Positions 14,972 to 55,320 of a stretch of DNA of 64,000 nt are shown here, piece after piece. Under the pieces are notes generated by a model. That model was not told where the DNA came from. It saw nothing but the letters and a program-made list of their open reading frames with translations, and did not search any database. The stretch lies in assembly GCA_010093605.1 (NCBI GenBank), contig MU004190.1, positions 1,178,001 to 1,242,000 on the forward strand, in the 5' to 3' direction. The position numbers and the translations under genes are program-made. This stretch comes from Lophium mytilinum. Its lineage: Eukaryota. Every line of letters begins with the position of its first letter. Position 1 is the first letter of the stretch.

Positions 14972-15622
14972 TGTTTACCACTGCTTGGGGTACCCCCATA
15001 CATTTCGAAAAGTGTGGGCGCGATGTCAAGTTTCGAGCAATGAAAATCAGACTATTCCTTGGCTCATTGGCTAGTGACTAGCTGGGCCACTCCTCGCAGT
15101 GGTGTCCAGAGAGCAAATTGGAGCCAAGCAGTCACAGATCCGCGTGTTCCAGAATTTCGAAGATCTCAAGCACACACGTTTACCACTGCTTGGGGTACCC
15201 CAATACGTTTCGCAAGTCCGAGCGCAATGTCAAGTTTCAAGCAATGCAAATCAGACTATTCTTTGACTCATTGGCTACAGACTAGCTGGGCTACTCCTCA
15301 CAGTGGTGTCTAGAGAGCAATATTGAAGCCAACAGTCGCGGATCTGCGTGCTGCAGAACTTCGAAGATCTCAGGCGATGTCAATTTTCCAAGCAATGCAG
15401 ATCGGACTACTTTTTAACTTATTGGCTACTGAATAGCCGGGCTACTCCTCACAGTGGTATCCGGAGAGCAAGATCGGAGCCAAGCAGTCACAGATCCGTG
15501 TGTCACACGGTTTCGAAGCTCTAAGGCCATGTCGATTTTTAGGCAGTAGAAATTAGACTCCCTATTGTCTAGTTGGCTTCTCGGCAGCCGGGCTACCCCC
15601 TACAGTGGTGTCGAGTGAGCAG
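14972..15622 (+). repeat. Tandem array of four diverged MITE internal cores lacking TIRs
   Basis: Anchor CAGTGGT at 15097, 15301, 15452 and 15603 (spacing 204, 151, 151). Shares CCACTGCTTGGGGTACCCC, GATGTCAAGTTTCAAGCA and GAGCCAAGCAGTCAC with the dispersed MITE copies. Confidence 0.9.
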
Positions 15623-17399: not shown

Positions 17400-17632
17400 C
17401 AGCAATAGGCCATACCCAAGTCAGTCCGAGCATACTGGTCTGCCACTGCTTAGGGTACCCCGCAGAATTTCCAAGATCGAGCGGCGATGTTAATGTTCCA
17501 GCCGAACAGATTAGACTATCTGTTGACTGATTAGCTGTTCGGCAGCCAGGGCACCTCCGACAGTGGTGTCGAGTAAGCAAATTGGACTTAAGTAGAGAAG
17601 AGTCTACGTGCTATACTTGTGGCTTAGGACTG
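17400..17632 (+). mobile_element. Tc1/mariner-type MITE, full-length copy
   Basis: TA|CAGCAATAGGCCATA...CGTGCTATACTTGTGGCTTAGGACTG|TA; shared internal core CCACTGCTTAGGGTACCCC...CAGTGGTGTC. Confidence 0.85.
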
Positions 17633-23987: not shown

Positions 23988-24842
23988 TCACTTCCTGCCC
24001 GTCGAAACAACGAAGACACCCTTCAACTTCTTCGGGCTCTTTGGATGCCGCTCAATCGCGAGCCTAATCCACTCCTCCTCGAACCGATCAAGCTCCTCCT
24101 CCGTATAGCCTCCAATGTAGAGATTAGCAGCCGGATTCTTCGCCCTCACAAACCCATTGAAGTACGGAGCCGGGTCATCAATAGCCATGAATGCCTCCTG
24201 GATCTCAAACGTGCTGTCCTTGAACCCAGCCTGCTCGAACATCTTCTTGATGCCCTCCATGCTCAACCACGATTCCGGAAACAACGAAGCGGGCGCCGTA
24301 TTCCCTTTCGTGTTCTCGGCAGCTAACTTCATGAGATCCATCCACTCGAGATTTGTCCAGGTGCTCATGCAAACCACGCCGCCGGGCTTGAGCACGCGAT
24401 ACGCCGCTTGTAGAGCCTTTTGGCTATCGGGAATGAGGTTGTAGACCAGACTACCCATGACATGGCTGATTGAAGAGTCGTCAATGCCGGCTAGGTCTTC
24501 TGCGTTCGATACCAGCGGTTCGATCCGGTTCCAGAGCGGATCTGTTGCTGTTTTCTTCCGTTCTTCGAGCTGCTCGATCATGCCGGTGCTAAAGTCCGAC
24601 GCTATGAGACGCGCATCCGGGGGGATCTGGGAGCCGAGTTGTCGTATCAGCATGCCAATGGTCGTTCCTGGGCCGCAGCCGACGTCTAGAATGACAGTCG
24701 CTTCGGATATTGAGAGCGCGTCGTTGAGGGTCTTGACAAGCACCACGCTCGGACGAGTAATCGGAGACTCGTCATCCTGAGGAAGAGCGTTGTAGTGTTT
24801 GGCGTTCGCGCTCCAGTCGTCGCCTTTCTGTTCGAAGGCCAT
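23988..24842 (-). CDS. Class I SAM-dependent methyltransferase (284 aa)
   Basis: ILDVGCGPG motif I, ASDFSTGMI, YRVLKPGG; intronless ORF. Confidence 0.92.
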   Translation of the reverse strand: MAFEQKGDDWSANAKHYNALPQDDESPITRPSVVLVKTLNDALSISEATVILDVGCGPGTTIGMLIRQLGSQIPPDARLIASDFSTGMIEQLEERKKTATDPLWNRIEPLVSNAEDLAGIDDSSISHVMGSLVYNLIPDSQKALQAAYRVLKPGGVVCMSTWTNLEWMDLMKLAAENTKGNTAPASLFPESWLSMEGIKKMFEQAGFKDSTFEIQEAFMAIDDPAPYFNGFVRAKNPAANLYIGGYTEEELDRFEEEWIRLAIERHPKSPKKLKGVFVVSTGRK

Positions 24843-25539
24843 GGCGACAGTGAATGACGGTGAGTATAAGAGTTGCTGGTGGATTGAAGTTGAGCCAAAC
24901 GAAGTAGAAATTGGTTTAGATACCGAGAGGTTACAGCAGCCGCCTTTTTATAGTATGGAGAACGGAGACATCCGGAGCTTTTGCGGAGAGATTTATGATC
25001 CCTGTGATCAATTAGCTCAGATCCGCCAAAAGAGGTAGGCGATGCGATGGTACTAACAGGTTGGAAGCTTTTGCCTGTTAGTTGTAGACGTGTAGAAGGA
25101 AGTTGCTGTGTAGGTCTTGAGGTGGTCGTCGGTGCTACGCCGCTCGTCGCCGCAATTGCTCCGCTATTTTCTAACCAACGACAAAATCCGCCCTCGAGCT
25201 AGGTAGCTAGACAATAAAAGAGTCCTCATGACCGATAACATATCTCTATATTTCCAAACAAGTTATTAGAATGAAGTCGGTTATTCAAAGAGTGTCATAG
25301 TCACGTGATCTCATTCCGTTCCCCGCCTTCCTTACTATCACCTTCTATTCCCAAAAAGGAATTCGAAGACCAGCAGTAAGGACATTTGATCCGTCAACCT
25401 ACCCAGCGGTACAGAAGAGTCAATGTTTCGGACGTCATTCCCTCGCCCCCGGACGGGCTTGAACGGCGCTAACTCGACCACTGGGCAGGCCTAAAGACCA
25501 ACTGAACGTTGTACCAGAGCCCGAGAATTCGAGGTTGCT

Positions 25540-25920: not shown

Positions 25921-26533
25921 AAGCACTGCTGCTGTATCTAGTTCATGGTGAGAGATCCTTTGAACTAGATTCTAGTGGCATTCATATGGCTGCAGAGTGG
26001 TTATCATGGGGCTAGTTGAGCCACGTAGTGTTTTGTGGTAATGGTTCCATTGGGGATAATTAGTGATTAGCACGTTTGTATAGAAGCGGTGGTGATTGTC
26101 AGTGATGGAAAGTGCGGGCTTCTTCCATCGGCCATGCAGGAGTCAGATCTCCAATTTTATTCGCTATACCCTACATTCCTGCATATGAACCGTCAATCGA
26201 GAACGTATCATCTTCACACTCAGACTTGATTCCTGCACCTAATATCTGGGCTCAAGACGTCCTACGAAGTACTTAGAGATTCCACCCATCCCCCAACCCC
26301 CATCCTGCTCGCCCGACGCCGCTGTGAGGAGGACCCCCGGGAGCTAGTACTGGCCTCGTCAAAGTGTAGCCCAATTCCCACTCTATTGACCTTTCCATCG
26401 TATTCCAAGTTCCAAAAGCCTATCAAGCCACCCCATACAGTTGCAAGGAGCCTACATCATGCGTCACCGGATCTCCCTTCTCACTCTCACATGCTACACC
26501 GAATCCCAATCTTTCCTTTATCCCTTCGTCCTC

Positions 26534-27838
26534 CTAAAGCTCCCCCTGCACAACCAACCCCTCCCCAACCGGCCCCAAATCCAAATCCAACCACTCAAAC
26601 ATCGCCGGCCCCTCACTCACCTCCCCACCCCTCACGCCCCCCTTCGCCGTGCCAAACCACTTCCCCAACCCCATCCCCATCGGCACTCTTGGGCTACTCG
26701 TCTTACTCGTCACATTCAACTCAAACACACCATGCTCGCCCGCATCAATCGTGATGACAGCGCCTAGCGGGTTCGGATAGTAGCCCTTGGGCGGGTACTC
26801 TGCGCCGTTGCCCCAGGGGCGGATGCGCACAGCAGAGGGGGAGAGCGTCTCGACGAGGGTAGTACCGTTGTAGTCGAGCCACGTTTGGCCGAAAGTGGTG
26901 GGGGAGTTGGTGTTGGGGGAGGGGGTTTGGAGCAAGGCTTCGATGGCGGTGAAGGTGTAGAGGCCGAAGCGGCCGTGGATGGCGTACCAGTTGTGGAAGT
27001 CGGCGAGGCCGATGCCCCAGTTCTGTATAGAGGATGTTAGTTGAGATAGAGAAGGAATGGGGGAGAGGGAGAGAATGGAGAGTGAGCTTACGTGGTCGTG
27101 GTATCCGCTGCCCTCGTCGAAGGAGATAGTCTTCTCGCCGACCTGGACGTAGGCGGTGGCATCGCCGCTTGGGACCGCGAGAGCCCAGCCTAGGGCGCCG
27201 ATATTACGCATATCTTCGTCGAGGTCGGTGGCTGGGCGTTTGGCACTACGAGATGGTACTGTCTTGGGTTGGCAATTAGCACTATTCTCGATATCTCAGT
27301 GACACAAACATACCCTCGTAATCTGAACCTCCCCCTTAATCCCCTCGTCCCGAATATCAAAGCTCATAGAATAATCGCTCATATCCGGTGTCCCACTCCA
27401 ACTGGACCCGGCACCGGTATACAAACCCGAACTCCCATCCCCGGTAGTCTTGATAATCACCTCATCCGCTGGAATGAATGTATCATACGATGTCCCATCC
27501 TTGAATCTAGAGTGGAAGATGAACCAATTGGAGCTTGTGAAGTTGAGGCCGATCGCGGCAGGGTTGGATGTCATCCACCACACGGCAATGGCTTGGTCGC
27601 CTTCCATGGAAGAGGCATCGAAGTACCACCATTCGATGGCGGTGGAGTTGATGAGGTCGGTATGAGGGCCATCGAAAGGGCCGTCACGATGGGTATCTAT
27701 AAAGCTCGTTTCGCCATCGACTGGGTGGGGTGGGATAACTCTTGTCGTAGGCTTAAAGTAGAGGGGTGGAGAGGGGCCTATGAAGGCGCTGGCTGATGAG
27801 AGACCGAGGACGATATTGAGGAGCTGAGAGGTCCTCAT
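26534..27838 (-). CDS. Secreted CrtC (hydroxyneurosporene synthase)-like / lipocalin-fold Diels-Alderase-like protein
   Basis: Signal peptide, NSTAIEWWYFDASS, LGWALAVP, and GSGYHDH|NWG across an intron. Introns 27263-27313 and 27023-27091. Confidence 0.8.
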
Positions 27839-28275
27839 GACGGAAGATCAAGGAGTTCAATTTGATAATGCTGAGGAAACAAGGAGCTGATTGATGAGCA
27901 TTTGCAAACTCGGAGATATAACGGCAGCCTAAATATCGCATCTTATACTTTACCTCAATGATTCCAAGCTTCATTAATGCGGAGTGAAAACAAAGATGGT
28001 CTCCGGCATCCGAAGGTACTCGTACATGATATGGCTCAGGGTAGGTTCCAGGTCCACGGTCTATGCGGCGTCATGCGGGGCGAGATCGAATGTAGTAATA
28101 ATCCGAATCAGATTCGAAGCTGTCACCGTTCCACGAAACATGATGGGGTCCTTCATTGGAAGCGAAGGATCGACGCCTGGGATACGCAGGCGCAGTATGC
28201 GGGGTCCGGGGAAGTCTGGGGTTATCGGTTCCGAACGCACAAGGCTCTGGCCTAACGGCGAATCGTTCCACGGTA

Positions 28276-28460
28276 AAGCGACAGATCATAAGTCTTTGCA
28301 CACCAGTTTGCCACTGCCTGGGATATTCACACAGTATTTCGAACCTGTAGAAGCAATGGCAAGTTTCAAGCAGTGCAAGTTAGACTGCCTTTTGACTGGT
28401 GACCAAAATTCGAGCGAAGAAATGAGGGATTCGTATACCCAGGCTCAGGACATACTACTG
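28276..28460 (+). mobile_element. MITE copy with an internal deletion
   Basis: TA|AAGCGACAGATCATAAGTCTTTGCAC...AAGTTTCAAGCAGTGCAAGTTAGACT...CCCAGGCTCAGGACATACTACTG; lacks the CAGTGGTG segment. Confidence 0.75.
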
Positions 28461-28905
28461 CATAGCTAGCTTTCGGACCTAATGCCTCCAGAGGACTAAG
28501 ATTCGAGGTAGGAAGAGATGAGTGCTGAGCATCTTTGAGTGTTCTTAGCTCGCATGGTTTGGAGCGACCCTGCAAGCTTGCAAGGCAGACTTGGACGAAG
28601 TTGTTCGAGAAGAGGTAACCAGTGTAGAAAGGAAACGAGAACGCGATATGAATACGAGAAATGCGAGGAACGATAGGAAAGAAAATAGACGTGAATCCGA
28701 TGCTCGAACAAGGTCCAATACTGCTGAATTGACTAATATAGTATGAGAATTTGACATATATATCTCAGGGCGACCATATGAGATGAAGCAGAGTATGTGA
28801 TCATGCCATGTCTAGCCCATTACTCCGGGTATCAAAAAGGGATATAAATCATAAGAGCCTCCACATAGTCCTTAAACCATTTTACATCATTCCAGCCACC
28901 ATACT

Positions 28906-39500: not shown

Positions 39501-40736
39501 ATGGCCGATCTCGAAAGCCCGCAGAGTGATCAGTCTCACGCCGAGTTTGACGTAACATCGATTGGTCAGCCAGATCCTTCGAACGACAACGATATGGAGG
39601 AGAAGCTATCTCTTACCGCCCTCCCGACCGAGATCGTGGAGAAGATTGCCGAACACCTCCCACTCCGAAGCATGAAGCAGTTGCGACTGACCTGCAAGCA
39701 ACTCGAGACCCAAACCCTTCATTACTTCACCAAGGAGTACTGCAAGCGCAAGCGCGTCGTAATTTGCATGACCGAGCTCCACTCTCTTGTCGAACAAGCC
39801 CGTAATACGAAGTTTGGAGGCAAGCTCAAGGAGCTCATCTTCGAGACTTGGATTAGCGCTCACCAGGACCCGCTGCAAAAGCGCAGCCTCGAGTACGACA
39901 TCAAGAGTTCTCTCATCAGCAAGGCCAGCCACTGCCTCTTGACAGCCTTCAACCATCTCCCTGCTTTGTCTAAGGTCACCATGGTTTCTGAGCCCATGCC
40001 CGGAGGAAAGCCTCACACCTGCCATGCCGCCATGATCATACTTGCTCTTCAGCACAGGAGCAACAGCTATCATCTAAAGACTTTGGAGCTTCCAAGCAAC
40101 GGCAGTTCCGTTTGCTGGGATCTCTTCATGACACTCAATCATTGGCATATGAAGGGCCTGGCGGACCCTCTAACGCCGCTCAGCACTATCACCTCTCTGA
40201 AGCTGGCTCTAAACGGCCGCTTCGACGGATTCAAGCCCGACCACTACTCCAAGGACCGCGCAGAGAAATCAGTTAAATCTTTTTTCTCCGGTCTCTTCGC
40301 CCTAGAGTCCCTCGGCCTCCACCTCGGGGAAATTGAGACAGCAACAGAGGCGGTAAACATAGGTAGTATCTCCAAGATGATCCTCAACATGACCTGGCCA
40401 AAGCTACAACACATCCGCTTCCGAGGCATGGCGCTCGTGGATGGTTCCTTCAGACGCTTCTTCCGCAGCCACGATATTCGTACTCTGAATTTGCATGAAG
40501 TCGTCTTCGGCCCTGAATGCTTTGCGAAGGCCTGTGCCATGATTCTCAACGAGTCAACCTTGGAGCATCTAGAGTTCCGCGATATGTACGAGGTCGGTCC
40601 GCCTGGGCCCATGATCACGACGGCGTCGCTGATATGGTTCCCTGAAGGTGAGACCGAAACGACTATCTTGGTTGCGGAGAAGTGGGAACTCGAGGAGAAG
40701 TTGCAAGGTTATCATTTTTGGGGAATGTTAGCTTAG
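39501..40736 (+). CDS. F-box domain protein (411 aa)
   Basis: SLTALPTEIVEKIAEHLPLRSMKQLRLTCKQL F-box motif followed by LRR-like segments; intronless. Confidence 0.88.
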   Translation: MADLESPQSDQSHAEFDVTSIGQPDPSNDNDMEEKLSLTALPTEIVEKIAEHLPLRSMKQLRLTCKQLETQTLHYFTKEYCKRKRVVICMTELHSLVEQARNTKFGGKLKELIFETWISAHQDPLQKRSLEYDIKSSLISKASHCLLTAFNHLPALSKVTMVSEPMPGGKPHTCHAAMIILALQHRSNSYHLKTLELPSNGSSVCWDLFMTLNHWHMKGLADPLTPLSTITSLKLALNGRFDGFKPDHYSKDRAEKSVKSFFSGLFALESLGLHLGEIETATEAVNIGSISKMILNMTWPKLQHIRFRGMALVDGSFRRFFRSHDIRTLNLHEVVFGPECFAKACAMILNESTLEHLEFRDMYEVGPPGPMITTASLIWFPEGETETTILVAEKWELEEKLQGYHFWGMLA

Positions 40737-41119
40737 TCGAGTTATGGCATGATCGCTGAGAAGCATGGAATGCTTCCATTCAGCAGGGCTCTTCCCATAT
40801 TGGTCTTCCTGGCGTTGGTTAACTAAAAGCGTGCTTCTCAGTCATCCCCAACAAAACCCACACTTTCCCAATATCTATTCCTTATGCTTTGGTTTTGCGT
40901 CCTGCATCACGGACGGGCGTTCTGGATAAGAACTTGCTTGGTTTTCTCTATCAGCTGAATCGGGCCATCCTCCGGTGGTTGATTTGCGTCACCTACCTCC
41001 GAGGGCCTCTTCATCATAGCCAATTATGTAAATTAGATTTAGCCAAATCCCCAATCGATGCTATCAAAATCAAGTTCCATGGTGCAGCGCGACGAGGGAC
41101 TGCTGAGATAAGAGGTCTT

Positions 41120-41236
41120 GTACAAATGCTGACATAGTTTGGACTGCTCAGCACATTTTCAAGATAGGACCATGAAGTTCCGATGAGGGGCCCCAAGCAG
41201 TGGCAATAAAGTATACGGATCTGGTAACGAGGTCTG
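41120..41236 (-). mobile_element. Degenerate MITE fragment in the 3' flank of the GH3 gene
   Basis: Minus strand reads TA|CAG...GCCACTGCTTGGGGCCCC with TIR-to-core spacing like the full copies; far end not recognisable. Confidence 0.5.
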
Positions 41237-41276
41237 TAGTGGCCGAAAGCATGATCAACCTTTCACCACCTGAAGA

Positions 41277-44200
41277 TCACACACCCCGCCACACAAAATC
41301 TTCCTTTACAGAAAACTGTACCTCTTCAACGATCTCCACCGAGCTCTTCGCCACGAGCGCGTGGTACGTACCGGCTTCCGCCACCCACGTATCTCTATCC
41401 TCATCCCAGAAACTGACAGCATACTTGTCCAGCTCAACCGTCACTTTCCCAGTCTCCTCTGGCCTCACCTCAACCTTCGCAAACCCCTTCAGCTCCTTGA
41501 TCGGCCTCTTCCCTCGCCCAACTTGATGCGCCGGGGGTGCGACATAAACCTGCACGATCTCCTTCCCAACAACCTTACCAACGTTCTTCACGCTCACCAC
41601 CAACCTCAGCTTATCCCCCACCGCCTTGATCTCCGCCTCCCCTTTCCACCCAATCTCAGTATACTCAAAGCTCGTATAGCTCAGCCCATACCCAAACGCC
41701 CACCTCGCACTAGCATTCCCCTCACGGTCGTAGTGCCTATACCCCACATCTCTGCCCTCCTCATACCTCAACACCCCATCCTCCGGACACGGAAAGTGCC
41801 CAAAAGACGGATTATCCTCGATCCGCACCGGCCAACTACTCGCCAGCTTCCCGCACGGCGTAATCACCCCGGTAACAACCGCCGCGATGGAGTTTCCGGC
41901 CTCCTGCCCGGGGTAGAAACACTGCAGCACCCCTTTGACCCCCTCCAACTCCGCGAACGGCATTGCGATCGGGGAGCCGGAGAAATTGATCACCACGGTA
42001 TTTGGGTTCGAGGCTGCGACGGCGTTGATGAGGGAGACTTGGTCGCAGGGCAGATCCATGGATGCCTGGTCGTAACCCTCGCTCTCGAATTCATCGGTTT
42101 TGCCGACGAAGACAAGGGCGATGTCGGAGGTGGCAGCGAGGGCGGCGGCGTCGGAGAGACGGGTAGGGATGGAGTAGGCTTCGTAGAAACGGATGGAGGA
42201 GCCTTGGAGGAGGGTCATGGAGCCGAGTTGGGAGGAGCGGAGGCGGGCGAGGGCGGCGTCGGAGGCGCCTCTGGTGGTGAGAGTGATTTTGTAGGGGTGG
42301 TTGGCGCGCATGGGGTAGGTTATGTGGCGGGTGAGGGTGTTTTTGTGGAAGACGTCTGCATGGGATCAGTATATTGTTTAGAGGAAGATTTACAGTGACA
42401 GATCATAAGCCTGTGCACGTTCGTTCGCCACTGCTTGGGGTGCCCCGACAAGATCTTAAAAGTCCAGCGCTGATGTTAAAGTTCAAGCAGTGTAGCTTAG
42501 ACCACTTCTGGGCAGGCTGGTCACTAAGCAGCCAGGTTACCACTCACAGTGGTGATGAATGAGCGAGGTTCGAGCCAAGCAGTGACGAATTCGCATGCCC
42601 AGATTCATGATAGTACTGTATCAGTAAGCTGGGTAACTTACAGCTCTCGAAGATCAAATCCATCTCCTGATCTCGGTGGTACACGTGCTCGTCGTCGACC
42701 CAGATGTCAGCTTCACCGGTCGTCGTGACTCCGAGGATGTGGTCTCCGGTCGTTTTGGGAATGATGATAAATTGCATTCTGGAGCAATAGTCAATCTCAT
42801 TTAAATCTTGCGGCCACGCCTCCTTTATCATGTATTCCGGCCTTTTCAGATGGTCGGTTCGAACAGGTTTCCCATCCGGAGAGGTTGCGTTGAACCACTC
42901 GCAAAGGACGGGAATTTCGGGGGATGGTGACGCTTCCACCGGACCAACCACGTCGAGACCCGGCAATGGAATTGCGTTATAGACTGGCACTCCTGGTGAG
43001 TACTCGTAGTTGATTCCAGCATTGGTAAAACCTTCTAGAGGAGTGACGCCCTTGAGCGGGAATAGCTTAGCGGACCCTCCTCCAGACATATTCGTTGCGG
43101 CCGCATGATGCCCAATGACTGCAACGCGGGCTCCTGGTGAGATGGGCAGTACGGAATTGTTGTTCTTCAAAAGCACAAATCCTTCGGCGGCGGCCCGGCA
43201 GATTAAGTCATCTCTTACTTTGCTGGCCGCCTCGAATTCGGGCTTCTCCACTGGGGTTTTCCACTTGTCGGCTCTTTTGATAAGCTCCAATACTCGGCAA
43301 GCCTCTTCGTCGATGGTGTCTGTTGATACCTCGCCGTTGGATATTGCATCTAAGAGCTTCTTACCGCGATGTTTGGTTGGGCCAGGCTGTAATAAAAGTC
43401 AGGTAAGAAGCAAAATGCGGACGTCCAGGAGTCCTCACCATCTCCAGATCCATACCGGCATTTACGGGCTCGTTGCAGGAGTACGTGCCAGCCCAGTCTG
43501 ACATCACGAGGCCTTTGAAGCCCCACTCTACTCGTAGAACATCGGTAATGAGACGCTTGCTATCGCCAACGAACTCTCCTTGGACTCGATTGTAACTGCA
43601 TGCCCATGATTAACACTGACCTCGGGAGTATTTACGATACTAGGCCATGAGTCTGGGCACGCTTATCGTCACTGCTGGGCTCGAATCTTTTTCACTTGCC
43701 ACGGTAGGAGGTAGCCTGGCTGCTCAAAGGCCAGTCAGTCAAGAAGCAGTCTAGTCTGCGCAGCTTGAAAACTGACATCGGCATTGAGTTTGGAAACCTT
43801 ATAGTGGACTTCAAGCAGTGGCGAACAGGGCACAGACTTATGAACTGTCACTGTATGTAGAGAGAGTACTAACCTCGTCATGAAGCACCAAGGGTCGCAT
43901 TCTTTCATAACGATCTGAAATGGATACAAATACACTTCCCTCAGTGTACTCTCACTCAATCGGACATCTAGGGTCCTTCTTTTGTTTTCCGCTTCATTTG
44001 CCACGTAATGCTTGGGCGTAGCACCAACACCTCGAGACTGAATGCCTTTGAAGATCTATCAGAACACCACAGTTGGAAAGAGGGCTCTTCATACCATTAA
44101 CGCATGCTGCTCCTAGCTTCCCTAGGAGAAAGGGGTCTTCGCCATACGTCTCGTAGTTGCGGCCACCTAAAGGGGAGCGGACTACATTGATGGTTGGAGC

Positions 44201-44590
44201 AAGGAGCACATCGGCCGATTTGGACTTTGTTTCTTCGGCGAGCTCTTGACCGATGCGGAATAATAGCTCTGTATCGAAGGTACTGCCTAGGTTTGAGGAA
44301 GAGGGGAAACAGGCGGCTCGAACGCCGGAAACGTAACTCTCGCCGCGAGCTCCATTAGGCCCATCGCTAGTCTGAATGGAAGCAAATACGAGTCGTTAGC
44401 TGAACCCGTATTCAACGAAGCTTACGAAAGACGGAAGAAATCATACCTTCACTTGTGGTACAAAGACACCTTCCCTTTCGATCCGAACAGTACGCCACCA
44501 GTCTGCGCCAGCGAGCAGACTGACCTTTTCCTCAAGCGTCAAGCGACGAAGGAGGTCTCGTATATCTGGAGTCGGCTGGGTGGTGGCCAT
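41277..44590 (-). CDS. Intracellular GH3 beta-glucosidase (PA14-like insert, FnIII C-terminus)
   Basis: [44 protein letters not shown], nucleophile [23 protein letters not shown]. No signal peptide. Five introns, including 43596-43873, 43387-43438 and 42357-42641; checked junctions are in frame. Confidence 0.95.
42393..42618 (+). mobile_element. MITE, full-length, inside GH3 intron 42357-42641 (antisense to the gene)
   Basis: TA|CAGTGACAGATCATAAGCCTGTGCACG...CATGCCCAGATTCATGATAGTACTG|TA; removing it plus one TA leaves a 57-nt intron. Confidence 0.9.
43635..43853 (-). mobile_element. MITE, full-length, inside GH3 intron 43596-43873 (sense to the gene)
   Basis: Minus strand TA|CAGTGACAGTTCATAAGTCTGTGCCC...CGTGCCCAGACTCATGGCCTAGTATCG|TA; removing it plus one TA leaves a 57-nt intron. 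Confidence 0.88.
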
Positions 44591-45715
44591 AGCTGTAGCC
44601 GGGGTCTAAGTGGGTGGGAGAAGAAGGAGGCGTGAATTGGCGAGCCAAGTCTGGGGAATATGTACACCAAACCATCGACGGCACCGGCATCCAATTTAAC
44701 CGCCATATGGAGTTTTTCCTCGACGTTGGGATAAAGTCGCAGACCGGTAGAAGAAGAGGGGCCTGGCAATCTTGACGGAGCTCCTAACCGGGCACGCGGC
44801 CCTCGATTCCGTGACCCACAGGGAAGCTGGACGCATCCATTCGCTGGCCGCCTCACCACTCCCATCACGGGCCACCACAGTCCACCACTATTCGTCCACT
44901 TTCAACTTTTCTGTGGTTCGTGTGAGACATCTTGGGGTCTCAGTAAGCTTTGGCGGGGCCCCGCTGCCTCAATGGAGATTTTCTGTCCGTCTCCGCCTTC
45001 TTGGCATGACCACGTGATTCGGTATTCAGCTTCATCAATTCAAATTGCGGCCAAGTCTGGGAAAGCGAAGAAGGGCGGGGTCAGCATGAACTTGGCTCGG
45101 TGAAAAAGCTGATGCCACTCGGGGTTCCGGCAGAGTTCCGTTGAATGAAAAGTGGCAAACCACGATCTTTAGAATAATGGTATTCTAAACTTTCTGAGAA
45201 ATTAGATACCAACTAACTCTGGGACTCTGTAGACTTGCCTGGCACCGTTTGGGGTCCTTTGGTACGTTCTCGTGAATTAGAAAAGTATTTCTGACATGCC
45301 TGATAACTCTTTGGGGCAGCGAATCCCGACTGTCCAAGAGTCTACTATGTGTGATCATATCTGGAATTTCCGGTAACTTATGTATAAAACTACTCTGGGG
45401 TTATGTACACTCGCCTGGCACTGCTGATATCCGCTGGTATGGTATTGCGAATTGGAAAAGGGCGATTCTGACATGCCGGATAGGTCTATGGGGACCTTAG
45501 ACGGAGTCAAAATTGACTACCACTTATTGTTCAGCGAGCCGCGCCAGGACCGCATGATTACTTGCGACCCTGACCACTACCACCAGGCTACCGGCCATAA
45601 AGGTAGGGTATGCCCTCCGCTGTGCTCTCGAGCTAACTTCTTGCTTTAATTTCGGTCCTGCACGTGGACTTTCACGCTCACCTTAGGGTCTGGTACTTGA
45701 AATCAGATCGTAGCC
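44591..45715. promoter_or_regulatory. Bidirectional promoter region between GH3 and the sugar permease
   Basis: Head-to-head starts. Several SYGGRG (CreA/Cre1-type) hexamers, e.g. ctgggg ~44651, gcgggg ~44953 and ~45075, plus CGG triplets. The motifs are short and unverified. Confidence 0.55.
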
Positions 45716-47551
45716 ATGGCTCCAGGAACAGTGCATGTCGTTGGAGCCGCAGACCCCATTCTCACGCGAGTCGTCGCAGAGGACAAAGTATCTTGGTATA
45801 AGAAACCTAACCTTCGAATTTTGTACCTCTTACTGCTTCCGACATGCATCGGTATCGAGATGACTTCGGGCTTTGACTCCCAGATGATCAACACTGTACA
45901 GATAGTACCTTCATGGCAAGAGTGTTAGTACTAGAACAGCCTTGAAGGGGATTTATACTCACGGAAAGACTAGACTTCAACCACCCCAAGGGCTCACTAA
46001 AAGGCATCATTGCTGCCATTTACTCCCTTGGAGCTATCTGTGCTCTCCCATTCGTCCCTTTGGTCAACGATCGCTTTGGACGACGATGGGCCATCTTCTT
46101 CGGATCGTTCATGATGGTGTTTGGTTCCATTCTCCAAGGATTCGCAAACGGATGTAAGCTCGTCCTCTCCGCTTAGCTAAGTATCTGTATTGATGATAGC
46201 AGCGGCAATGTATATCATTGCTCGATGGTTCCTAGGCTTTGGTATCCCATTTTGCATCGTAGCCGGATCAGCTCTCATCGGCGAGCTCTCATATCCGAAA
46301 GAACGCCCTATCCTCACATCGCTTTTCAACGCATTGTACTTCGTCGGTGCCTTGGTGGCTGCTGGGATATCCTTCGGTACCCAAGACATCAAGAGTGATT
46401 GGGCCTGGAGAATTCCGTCCTTGCTTCAAGCCGTGCCTTCGGCCCTCCAAATCGCATTCGTGTTCTTCAGTCCGGAGTCCCCGCGATTTCTTATAAGCAA
46501 AGACAAGCGTGAAGAGGCGTTTGCGATTTTGGTCAAGTACCACGCCGAAGGGGATGCCAATTCGGAAATAGTCAAAGCGGAAATGGCCCAAATTGAGAGT
46601 ACGATCAAGATCGAGCTGGAGCACAGCAAGAGATCTTGGTGGGAAATGGTCCGGCCTCCCGGGATGCGCCGACGCGTCATAATCGCTTCTTTCTTGGGGC
46701 TGTTCACGCAATGGAGTGGAAACACGTTGATCAGTGTAAGCTTTGCCGCAGCTTCCCCATGCCTCGTCAAACACTGTTGCATGGAAATGAACATAGGAAG
46801 AAATATGAATGCTGACTGAGGGACTAGTACTACCTCAACGATCTGCTTGTGCTGATCGGTTACACGGATCCGAAGTTCAAGGGCAAGCTCAACGTTGGCC
46901 TTAACAGCTGGCAGTTGGTCAACGGCGTTACTGCCGCGCTCTTAGTTCGCCGCTTTCCCCGTCGAGTCATGTACATGACTTGCACCATCTCGCTGCTTTG
47001 CGTCTATATTGGCTGGACCATTTCCATGGAACAGTTTTTGACCAAGCATGGGGAAGCCGCGGCAAAGCTTACGATATTCTTCATCTTTCTGTACTCACCG
47101 GCGTACAACATAGGCTATAATGCCTTGACTTACACATATCTAGTCGAATTGTTCCCCTTCGCTCAACGAGCAAGAGGGATCACCATATTCCAATTCTGGG
47201 GCAGAGGCGCGGGCTTCTTCACGACCTTCGTGAACCCGATTGGGCTTGAGAACATCAAGTGGCGGTGGCTGATAACGTACTGCTGCTGGATCGCTTTTGA
47301 GATCGTTTTCGTATGGTTCATGTTTCCGGAGACTGGCGGTCGAACTTTGGAGGAACTCGCCTTCTGTAAGTTGCTACAACGCCTTATTGCCGCTACGTGC
47401 CTGGCTGACAAGGTTCTTCCCAGTGTTCGAGGATAAGGCGCTGGCCGACGAGGCTACAATGGCGGTCGAAAAGCAGATCCATCACGAGGAAAACCCCTTG
47501 GAAGAAATCACGTCCAAAGCTGCGCCTACGCAGACCAAGGAGGTCGTGTAG
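45716..47551 (+). CDS. MFS sugar porter (lactose/cellodextrin permease-like)
   Basis: GFDSQMIN, NDRFGRR, ELSYPKERP, PESPRFL, QWSGN, ELFPFAQRARG, PETGGRTLEE; four GT-AG introns. Confidence 0.95.
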
Positions 47552-49467: not shown

Positions 49468-49615
49468 GCACTGCTTGGGGCGGCCCCATGGGCTTTCAAT
49501 ATGTCTTGAAACGATGCAAAAGTTCACGGGTTGGAATCTGGGCGACCTTTTGACAGGTCAGCTGCCGGCCAGTGGGACAACTCCTAACAGTGGTGTCTAG
49601 CAGCCAAGAGTGACA
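49468..49615 (+). mobile_element. Degenerate MITE core
   Basis: GCACTGCTTGGGGCGGCCCC...CTCCTAACAGTGGTGTCTAG...GCCAAGAGTGAC; TIRs not recognisable. Confidence 0.65.
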
Positions 49616-54667: not shown

Positions 54668-55274
54668 TGCAAGGAATTGAGGATGTACAACGTTTTCTCT
54701 TTCTCTTCATAGCATTACAGTAGCTTGCAGGCTTCACGTTCTTGACTTTCGTGTCGTCTCATTAGATCCTCCCTGAATTAACGCCTTGAAAAACCCACAG
54801 ATGCCCCCAGCACACCCAGACCCTACTTGCGGTTCCTCTTCTCCAGCTTCACGATAGCAACATTCCCGCGCGGAACATCCAGCCCACTTAGAACTCCTCC
54901 GCCGCCGCGACGCCGCCCTCCCCCGCCCCGGCCGCCCTTCTTCTTGTCCTTCTGCGGGCAGTTCTGGCGTTTATGGCGCTTTTTCTTGCAAGTGAAGCCT
55001 AGTTAATCTTGTCAGCAAATTCAGGGATCAAGGACATTATACTAGGGATGCTCGACAGAAGGCATACGAAGAATAGTAAATAAAAATACATAGATTTACT
55101 ATCAGACAACTCCAATAAAGCAACACGCACATGCTAGACAGGAAAAAGGTGCCATACCTAGCTAACAGTCAGGCCTTTATACACCTGTCTGCCGCTGTTT
55201 GTAGTGCTTCAATATTTCTTTAGACCTAGAAACAAGGTAGAACCGCTTAGCTTTGGGCTACGTGGATGCCTGTT

Positions 55275-55320
55275 GAGGCACTCCAAGCAGTGGCAGACAA
55301 GTGCACCTACTTAAGTACTT
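55275..55320 (-). mobile_element. Short MITE fragment
   Basis: Minus strand aagtaggtgcacttgtctgccactgcttggagtgcc resembles the TIR end plus core start. Confidence 0.45.

What the first reader, a model, noticed from the sequence alone, without database searches (positions are those of the whole stretch)
42357..43873. Two oppositely oriented MITEs in two introns of the same GH3 gene bracket the catalytic-nucleophile exon
Seen: the two unusually long introns (285 and 278 nt) each shrink to 57 nt when the MITE and one TA are removed. The copies are inverted relative to each other and enclose exons 43439-43595 (encoding the SDW nucleophile motif) and 42642-43386, 902 nt in total, not a multiple of 3. 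Splice sites and frame are intact. Known: inverted intronic repeats such as Alu pairs promote back-splicing and exon skipping in animals. Inference: the pre-mRNA could form a long-range duplex giving a circRNA, frameshifting exon skipping or dsRNA/siRNA, i.e. TE-derived control of a beta-glucosidase. The copies are visibly diverged (roughly 70% by eye), which weakens pairing.
Basis: partly seen in the sequence, partly recalled or inferred. Interest (0 to 1): 0.7.

Follow-up and report, generated by a model that had tools for sequence, protein, structure and literature searches.

The report
Two inverted MITEs in beta-glucosidase introns
Two old copies of a small mobile DNA element sit head-to-head in two introns of a fungal beta-glucosidase gene and are spliced out normally, so they look like tolerated passengers, although on paper they could pair and loop out the catalytic exons.

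Summary
A six-exon GH3 beta-glucosidase gene lies on the minus strand (41277-44590). Its 857-aa product is identical to a deposited Lophium mytilinum protein. Introns 3 (278 nt) and 5 (286 nt, not 285) each hold one TA-flanked copy of the same MITE family (214 and 221 nt, about 74% identical, inverted). Without the element and one TA the introns would be 62 and 63 nt, not 57. The family is abundant, with 12 loci in this 64-kb window. These include intergenic copies, a tandem array and a fragment in this gene's 3' UTR. The two copies are predicted to pair strongly in the pre-mRNA: -231.8 kcal/mol against -101 for shuffles, and 170 A-B pairs in the MFE fold of the 1578-nt precursor. Contigs of the one RNA-like public run join exactly across all five introns, so linear splicing is the assembled form. 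One further contig keeps intron 3 unspliced. No back-splice or exon-skip contig was seen, but contigs cannot show absence. Best reading: two independent insertions into pre-existing short introns, mostly neutral. The circRNA/skipping idea stays an untested possibility. This is an ordinary kind of event and a modest candidate test case.

The parts
41277..44590 (-). GH3 beta-glucosidase gene (CDS, 6 exons, 857 aa; cytosolic KmBglI-like type)
   Evidence: Gene model. It is identical to P0001, named 'glycoside hydrolase [Lophium mytilinum]'. Pfam finds GH3 N, GH3 C and Fn3-like domains per exon. Best solved relative is 3ABZ, E 4.5e-160.
43596..43873 (-). Intron 3 ('A'), 278 nt, GTTAGT...CAG, phase 2
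   Evidence: An X3 contig joins 43595 to 43874. X3 record 18 (336 nt, 43568-43903) keeps the intron unspliced. Self-fold z-score -0.90.
43640..43853 (-). MITE copy A, 214 nt, flanked by TA at 43638-43639 and 43854-43855
43439..43595 (-). Exon 4, 157 nt, encodes residues 198-250 including the SDW motif (S230 D231 W232)
43387..43438 (-). Intron 4, 52 nt, no repeat
   Evidence: X3 joins 43386 to 43439.
42642..43386 (-). Exon 5, 745 nt (start of the GH3 C domain plus most of the PA14-like insertion)
42356..42641 (-). Intron 5 ('B'), 286 nt, GTAAGT...CAG, phase 1
   Evidence: X3 record 17 joins 42355 to 42642. Self-fold -94.5 kcal/mol, z -4.35, a closed hairpin.
42393..42613 (+). MITE copy B, 221 nt, inverted relative to A, flanked by TA at 42391-42392 and 42614-42615
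41135..41213 (-). Partial third family copy in the 3' UTR of the same gene (same orientation as A)
   Evidence: nhmmer iteration 3, E 3.1e-07. It contains the conserved core GCCACTGCTTGGGG. X3 record 17 starts at 41133.

Best explanation
Two old, diverged members of an abundant TA-targeting, Tc1/mariner-like MITE family inserted independently into two pre-existing short introns (about 62 and 63 nt) of a cytosolic GH3 beta-glucosidase gene of Lophium mytilinum. They happen to lie in opposite orientation. Because they sit wholly inside introns, they are removed with them and the enzyme is made normally, so they are tolerated passengers. Inferred: copy B folds on itself into a closed hairpin that brings its ends together, so the spliceosome still sees a short intron. 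Copy A has decayed terminal repeats, folds no better than random sequence and sits behind a weaker donor (GTTAGT). That may be why an unspliced intron-3 form, which stops 51 codons into the intron, is abundant enough to be assembled. The A-B pairing potential is real on paper but is not known to be used.
For: Shown. Element ends are sharp and TA-flanked in 3 of 3 copies that share these termini: A, B and the copy near 28274-28463. Splice sites lie 20/28 nt and 44/37 nt outside the elements, TA included, in flanks that are unrelated between A and B. Empty-site lengths of 62 and 63 nt match the gene's other introns of 75, 49 and 52 nt. Protein alignments have no gap at either intron site in 9 of 9 sequences, so the intron flanks are not former coding sequence. 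The family has 12 loci in 64 kb, including sites outside long ORFs, a tandem array at 14973-15621 and a 3' UTR fragment. Further contigs of DNA runs X1 and X2 match parts of the element below 95% likeness. X3 contigs, with 0 mismatches, join across all five introns at the predicted GT-AG sites. The deposited 857-aa protein equals this model. Intron B self-fold has z -4.35 (0 of 200 shuffles as good) and intron A has z -0.90 (37 of 200). X3 record 18 covers intron 3 unspliced with unique flanks. Its mean word depth is 9.49, against 52.3 for the contig that joins across; this is a rough figure, not a level. From papers: intra-intron stems that shorten the 5'ss-branchpoint distance aid yeast splicing (PMC2536676 and PMC12350175; search listing and abstract starts only).
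Against: Thermodynamically the A-B duplex beats the two separate hairpins: -231.8 against -64.0 + -80.8 kcal/mol. It also dominates the MFE of the whole precursor, so an effect on splicing cannot be excluded. The assembled intron-3-retaining contig shows that at least one MITE-bearing intron is not perfectly neutral. The link between hairpin quality and retention rests on two introns only. The age and independence of the insertions were not tested, because no orthologous intron from a close relative could be fetched.
Confidence: 0.72

Rival explanations
1. The inverted pair acts as a reverse-complementary match. In transcripts where intron 3 is still present when intron 5 is made, A pairs with B and brings the exon-5 donor next to the exon-4 acceptor. 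This gives a 902-nt exon 4-5 circRNA and/or a frameshifting exon 3-to-6 skip, and so lowers the output of active enzyme.
For: Predicted duplex of 167-170 pairs, about 130 kcal/mol better than shuffles and 77.5 kcal/mol better than the best fold without long-range pairs. An unspliced intron-3 form exists, so intron 3 can persist. RCMs as short as 13 nt drive both back-splicing and skipping in C. elegans zip-2 (PMC8330042, abstract). The G. lucidum circRNA paper cites 30-40 nt inverted repeats as sufficient and finds circRNA-flanking introns longer than control introns (PMC6848116, passages).
Against: No direct evidence of either product. Copy B's own hairpin (z -4.35) forms first during transcription and competes with A-B pairing. 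In fungi and plants few circRNAs have flanking inverted repeats: 2 pairs among 731 exonic circRNAs in G. lucidum, and 6 circRNAs with MITEs on both sides in cucumber (PMC6486992, passages). The longest uninterrupted A-B helix is 16 bp.
Confidence: 0.13
2. The intronic hairpins, above all copy B, or an A-B duplex, are diced into small RNAs that act on the many other family copies or on this gene.
For: Intron B folds into a long imperfect hairpin of -94.5 kcal/mol, with a 15-bp perfect stem read from the printed structure. The family is multicopy, and parts of it lie in other X3 contigs (loose ends at 42411-42509).
Against: No small-RNA data were available. The stems are short and mismatched. 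Nothing here shows that RNAi acts on this family.
Confidence: 0.08
3. The two long introns are introner-like elements, meaning the repeat created the introns when it inserted.
For: The host is a Dothideomycete, the class where ILEs were described (PMC4457414, Introduction read). A 53%-identical metagenomic homologue (L001) has no intron over residues 12-470.
Against: Splice sites lie outside the TA-flanked element in unrelated flanks. The two copies have opposite orientations. Other copies lie outside long ORFs or in a UTR. Copies are only 65-75% alike rather than near-identical. L001 may be from a distant lineage or from RNA, so it says nothing about the age of these introns.
Confidence: 0.03

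Closest known systems
Reverse-complementary-match (Alu-pair type) exon circularisation and skipping in animals, e.g. C. elegans zip-2 (PMC8330042, abstract)
   Same: Inverted, mutually complementary repeats sit in the two introns that flank internal exons. The predicted long-range duplex would juxtapose a downstream donor and an upstream acceptor.
   Different: No back-splice or skipped product has been observed here. The host is a short-intron filamentous fungus. The copies are only about 74% identical, and each is also self-complementary, which competes with cross-pairing.
TA-targeting Tc1/mariner-derived MITEs (Stowaway-like elements of plants, mimp of Fusarium; these names are recalled, not from a call)
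   Same: About 215 nt and non-coding, with TA at both ends, terminal and subterminal inverted repeats, many dispersed copies, and locations in introns, UTRs and gene flanks.
   Different: No autonomous partner was identified. The terminal repeats are decayed, especially in copy A. No insertion polymorphism or empty site has been shown.
Introner-like elements of Dothideomycetes (PMC4457414)
   Same: Same fungal class, and unusually long introns that share sequence between different introns.
   Different: ILEs are whole introns present as near-identical copies. Here the repeat is internal to the intron, occurs in both orientations and outside genes, and is old.
Intron 'zipper' stems that shorten the 5'ss-branchpoint distance in S. 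cerevisiae (PMC2536676, PMC12350175; listing and abstract starts)
   Same: Self-pairing inside a long intron that could restore a short effective length, as predicted for copy B.
   Different: Here the stem comes from a transposon's inverted repeats. The effect on splicing is inferred, not measured.
Kluyveromyces marxianus beta-glucosidase I, PDB 3ABZ/3AC0 (host gene)
   Same: Full-length match over query residues 9-857, E 4.5e-160, with the MSDW motif aligned.
   Different: A different organism. Enzyme activity of the Lophium protein has not been tested.

Membership tests
MITE, TA-targeting (Tc1/mariner-like) | Short (well under 800 bp) and non-coding | tested here: met
   The elements are 214 and 221 nt. 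Frames through them are short stop-to-stop stretches in the three-frame read.
MITE, TA-targeting (Tc1/mariner-like) | Terminal inverted repeats | tested here: inconclusive
   Copy B has 37-nt arms that are 73% complementary (I2) and forms a closed hairpin with z -4.35. In copy A only subterminal arms pair, z -0.90. The outermost 9 nt (CAGTGACAG) have no clear mate at the other end.
MITE, TA-targeting (Tc1/mariner-like) | TA target-site duplication | tested here: met
   TA lies at both ends of 3 of 3 copies that share these termini: A, B and the copy near 28274-28463. TA is a common dinucleotide, so this support is modest.
MITE, TA-targeting (Tc1/mariner-like) | Many dispersed copies | tested here: met
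   12 loci in the window by nhmmer. Other contigs of X1 and X2 match element parts: 26 and 24 records laid, of which 17 and 18 are under 90% alike.
MITE, TA-targeting (Tc1/mariner-like) | Related autonomous transposase, or evidence of mobility (empty sites) | not testable with these tools
   No genome is held. No transposase domain was found among the 53 window ORFs scanned: 12 and 41 of the 74 ORFs of at least 150 aa.
Introner-like element | The element is the whole intron and brings its own splice sites | tested here: not met
   Donor and acceptor lie 20/28 and 44/37 nt outside the element in unrelated flanks.
Introner-like element | Near-identical copies, in introns of unrelated genes | tested here: not met
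   Copies are 65-75% alike in BLASTN. They also lie outside long ORFs, in a tandem array and in a 3' UTR.
RCM-driven circRNA locus | Inverted complementary sequences in both flanking introns, able to pair | tested here: met
   (in silico only).
RCM-driven circRNA locus | A back-splice junction in RNA | tested here: inconclusive
   Only assembled contigs of one run were available, and these cannot show rare forms.
RCM-driven circRNA locus | RNase R resistance; loss on deleting one repeat | not testable with these tools
   Needs bench work.
GH3 beta-glucosidase (KmBglI-like) | GH3 N and C domains plus an Fn3-like domain | tested here: met
   PF00933, PF01915 and PF14310 hit the single exons.
GH3 beta-glucosidase (KmBglI-like) | SDW nucleophile motif (its catalytic role is established knowledge and was not tested here) | tested here: met
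   S230 D231 W232 are invariant in 9 of 9 sequences and align to MSDW of 3ABZ.
GH3 beta-glucosidase (KmBglI-like) | PA14 domain inserted in the C domain | tested here: inconclusive
   PF01915 is split between profile positions 57 and 58 by about 170 residues, and the protein aligns full-length to 3ABZ. PF07691 did not hit the exon translations at E <= 0.001 and is not among P0001's precomputed domains.

The most novel reading that the evidence does not exclude
In Lophium mytilinum the two diverged MITE copies work as a natural reverse-complementary match. They loop out the exons that carry the catalytic nucleophile, giving a 902-nt circRNA and/or a frameshifting exon 3-to-6 skip that tunes the output of a cellobiose-utilisation enzyme. 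That would be a rare transposon-made, Alu-pair-like circRNA locus in a short-intron filamentous fungus.
Probability: 0.1. Interest if true: 0.55.

Novelty: new member of a known kind. Interest (0 to 1): 0.3.

Why it matters
Fungal introns are short and circRNAs with flanking complementary repeats are rare in fungi, so a natural pair of inverted repeats around internal exons is a convenient test case. It could show whether the animal-type pairing mechanism works in a filamentous ascomycete. It could also show how about 215-nt insertions are tolerated in about 60-nt introns: the self-hairpin 'looping out' idea predicts the observed contrast between introns 5 and 3. If nothing beyond normal splicing happens, the locus is simply one more example of MITEs surviving where they do least harm.

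Tried and rejected
1. No whole genome is held for the window. Genome-wide copy number, an autonomous element and paralogue DNA could therefore not be examined.

2. The look-up of sequencing runs: 'no RNA holder listed'. X3 is only guessed to be RNA. I treat it as RNA-like because its contigs skip exactly the five introns.

3. X3 contigs show no joint that goes back (42642 to 43595) and no 43874-to-42355 joint. No listed piece covers intron 5 unspliced, and 60 further pieces were not shown. Contigs drop rare variants, so none of this counts for or against circRNA, skipping or retention.

4. The search of earlier findings by place and by sequence returned nothing.

5. Rfam, both strands of 42300-43950 at E <= 1: 0 matches, so there is no known snoRNA or other RNA family in the long introns.

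6. The metagenome scan gave one homologue (L001, 53% identity) with no intron over residues 12-470. It is too distant, and possibly RNA-derived, to date the introns.

7. Chimera idea for the GC3 jump: the same three proteins (P0002-P0004) are the best hits for every exon block, so there is no protein-level sign of a mosaic.

8. RIP: TpA/ApT is 0.51-1.23 and (CpA+TpG)/(ApC+GpT) is 1.02-1.48 across the gene parts and the MITEs, so no RIP signature. A-B differences are 34 transitions and 20 transversions.

9. DNA-level inversion by recombination between the copies: the longest fully complementary stretch is 15 nt (I7). I judged it unlikely and did not test it.

It was replaced by single-exon window references and later by the stored protein P0001.

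12. Literature searches listed no paper on MITE pairs driving circRNAs in fungi or on MITEs of L. mytilinum. Only the listed titles and abstract starts were screened, so this is not proof of absence.

Full report
**What is there**

The region lies in a minus-strand gene with six exons: 44590-44447, 44371-44095, 44045-43874, 43595-43439, 43386-42642 and 42355-41277. The introns are 75, 49, 278, 52 and 286 nt. The 857-aa translation is identical to a deposited protein named 'glycoside hydrolase [Lophium mytilinum]' (P0001), so the window is from that Dothideomycete or a near-identical strain. Single-exon translations hit GH3 N (PF00933), GH3 C (PF01915, split between profile positions 57 and 58) and Fn3-like (PF14310). 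The best solved relative is Kluyveromyces marxianus beta-glucosidase I, 3ABZ, full length, E 4.5e-160. S230-D231-W232 in exon 4 is invariant in 9 of 9 aligned homologues.

**Check of the observation**

- Introns 3 (43596-43873) and 5 (42356-42641) each contain one copy of the same repeat, in opposite orientation.
  - BLASTN gives 157/219 = 72% identity, E 1e-26.
  - A global alignment gives 158 matches, 34 transitions, 20 transversions and 11 gap columns.
- Homology between the copies stops sharply at a TA on both sides.
  - Copy A is 43640-43853 (214 nt) and copy B is 42393-42613 (221 nt).
  - A third copy with the same termini, near 28274-28463, is also TA-flanked.
The acceptor CAG ends at 42356, and only that keeps the frame.

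**RNA evidence**

One public run of guessed kind (X3, 'RNA?') holds 84% of the sampled words of the gene. Laid on 40500-45500, its contigs have 0 mismatches. They join 42355>42642, 43386>43439, 43595>43874, 44044>44094 (cut +1) and 44371>44447, which are exactly the five predicted introns. So both MITE-bearing introns are spliced at the predicted sites.

A separate 336-nt X3 contig (record 18, 43568-43903) runs through intron 3 unspliced, with unique exon flanks. Its mean word depth is 9.49, against 52.3 for the contig that joins across. This is a rough figure only, since contig depths are not levels. X3 has no cover at 40500-41000, so DNA carry-over is an unlikely source. Read through, intron 3 gives a stop after 51 codons, before the nucleophile.

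**The repeat family**

An iterated nhmmer profile finds 12 loci in the 64-kb window:
- A and B;
- a tandem array at 14973-15621 (periods 204 and 151);
- 17421-17622, 26302-26446, 28286-28450, 49469-49610 and 55253-55315;
- a partial copy at 41135-41213 inside this gene's 3' UTR.

The copies share a conserved core, GCCACTGCTTGGGG...CACAGTGGTG...CCAAGCAGTGAC. They are only 65-75% alike in BLASTN. Several lie outside long ORFs. DNA runs X1 and X2 hold further contigs that match parts of the element below 95% likeness. Rfam finds nothing in the introns. No transposase domain was seen among the 53 ORFs scanned.

The family therefore fits an old, abundant TA-targeting MITE. At one locus per about 5 kb locally, two or three copies in one 3.3-kb gene is not surprising. 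Their survival in introns and the UTR is what selection would leave.

**Were the introns there first?**

- The splice sites lie 20/28 nt and 44/37 nt outside the elements, in flanks that are unrelated between A and B.
- The empty-site sizes match the gene's other introns.
- The protein alignment has no gap at either intron position, so the flanks are not intronised coding sequence.
- These points argue against an introner-like origin. ILEs are whole introns present as near-identical copies (PMC4457414, Introduction).
- A 53%-identical metagenomic homologue has no introns over residues 12-470, but it is too distant to date these introns.
- Orthologous introns of close relatives could not be fetched.

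**Can the copies pair?**

Yes, on paper.
- RNAduplex of A with B gives -231.8 kcal/mol, with 167 pairs (16 G-U) and a longest helix of 16 bp.
- The comparison values are -101.3 +/- 6.7 for 100 dinucleotide shuffles (minimum -119.3) and -122.5 if the copies were direct.
- The separate self-folds are -64.0 and -80.8 kcal/mol.
- The MFE fold of the 1578-nt precursor (43903-42326) contains 170 A-B pairs at -577.3 kcal/mol. With base-pair span limited to 700 nt it is -499.8 kcal/mol.

Kinetics point the other way. Intron 5 alone folds into a closed hairpin (-94.5 kcal/mol, z -4.35, 0 of 200 shuffles as good). That hairpin would form as soon as the intron is transcribed. Intron 3 folds no better than shuffles (z -0.90, 37 of 200).

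**Most likely mechanism**

The best reading is two independent insertions into pre-existing short introns, removed with them, with no designed function (confidence about 0.7). I infer, but have not shown, that copy B's self-hairpin loops the insertion out and restores a short effective intron. This is analogous to the stems that shorten the 5'ss-branchpoint distance in yeast (PMC2536676, PMC12350175; listing and abstract starts). By the same inference, copy A's decayed ends and the weaker GTTAGT donor explain why only intron 3 has an assembled unspliced form.

The rival is RCM-type back-splicing or skipping, as shown for C. elegans zip-2 (PMC8330042, abstract). It is physically plausible but unsupported. 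In the papers I read, few circRNAs of fungi and plants have flanking inverted repeats: 2 pairs among 731 in Ganoderma lucidum (PMC6848116) and 6 circRNAs with MITEs on both sides in cucumber (PMC6486992).

**Verdict**

This is a real, correctly spotted structure with minor coordinate errors. It is an ordinary kind of event, a MITE in an intron, in an arrangement that makes a tidy but unproven candidate for pairing-driven back-splicing in a fungus. Interest 0.3.

Noticed in passing
window 41277-44590, change point near 42753: The third-position GC of the GH3 coding sequence jumps from 0.54 (codons 1-461) to 0.745 (codons 462-857). The LLR is 19.6 against a maximum of 8.2 in 300 permutations. 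The change point lies about 110 nt upstream of intron 5, inside exon 5, not at the MITE. Neighbouring ORFs have GC3 of 0.49-0.73. There is no RIP signature, and the same best homologues hit both halves. Unexplained.
   Followed up: partly
window 14973-15621: Members of the same MITE family form a tandem array: period 204 x 2.0 at 86% matches, then period 151 x 2.6 at 74%. It lies downstream of a LAMTOR-domain ORF.
   Followed up: partly
window 41135-41213: A partial third copy of the family lies in the GH3 3' UTR, in the same orientation as copy A and therefore complementary to copy B. It stays in the mature mRNA, since the X3 contig starts at 41133.
   Followed up: partly
window 45185-45238 (minus strand): An X3 contig skips 54 nt with ends CT..GC on the plus strand. 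On the minus strand that is a GC-AG intron (GCAAGT...TTTAG) upstream of the GH3 start codon, suggesting a spliced 5' UTR. The same 3737-nt contig runs on beyond 45500 into the neighbouring gene.
   Followed up: partly
window 45717-47433 (plus strand): A sugar transporter gene (PF00083 in two ORF pieces) is transcribed divergently from the GH3 gene. This looks like a cellobiose uptake/hydrolysis pair sharing an intergenic region of about 1.1 kb, which contains a direct repeat (45289-45316 and 45466-45493, spacing 177).
   Followed up: no
window 26537-27847 (minus strand): ORF pieces here carry AsqO-like C-terminal and Diels-Alderase N-terminal domains, with a methyltransferase ORF at 23991-24947. 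This may be part of a secondary-metabolite cluster. One MITE copy (28286-28450) sits just upstream.
   Followed up: no
P0002-P0004: The closest homologues of this GH3 are patchily distributed: Malbranchea cinnamomea (Eurotiomycetes) at 64%, then Patellaria atrata at 60% and Lineolata rhizophorae at 56% over exon 6. Identity then drops to 45% or less, including a Lophium paralogue (P0006, 43%).
   Followed up: no
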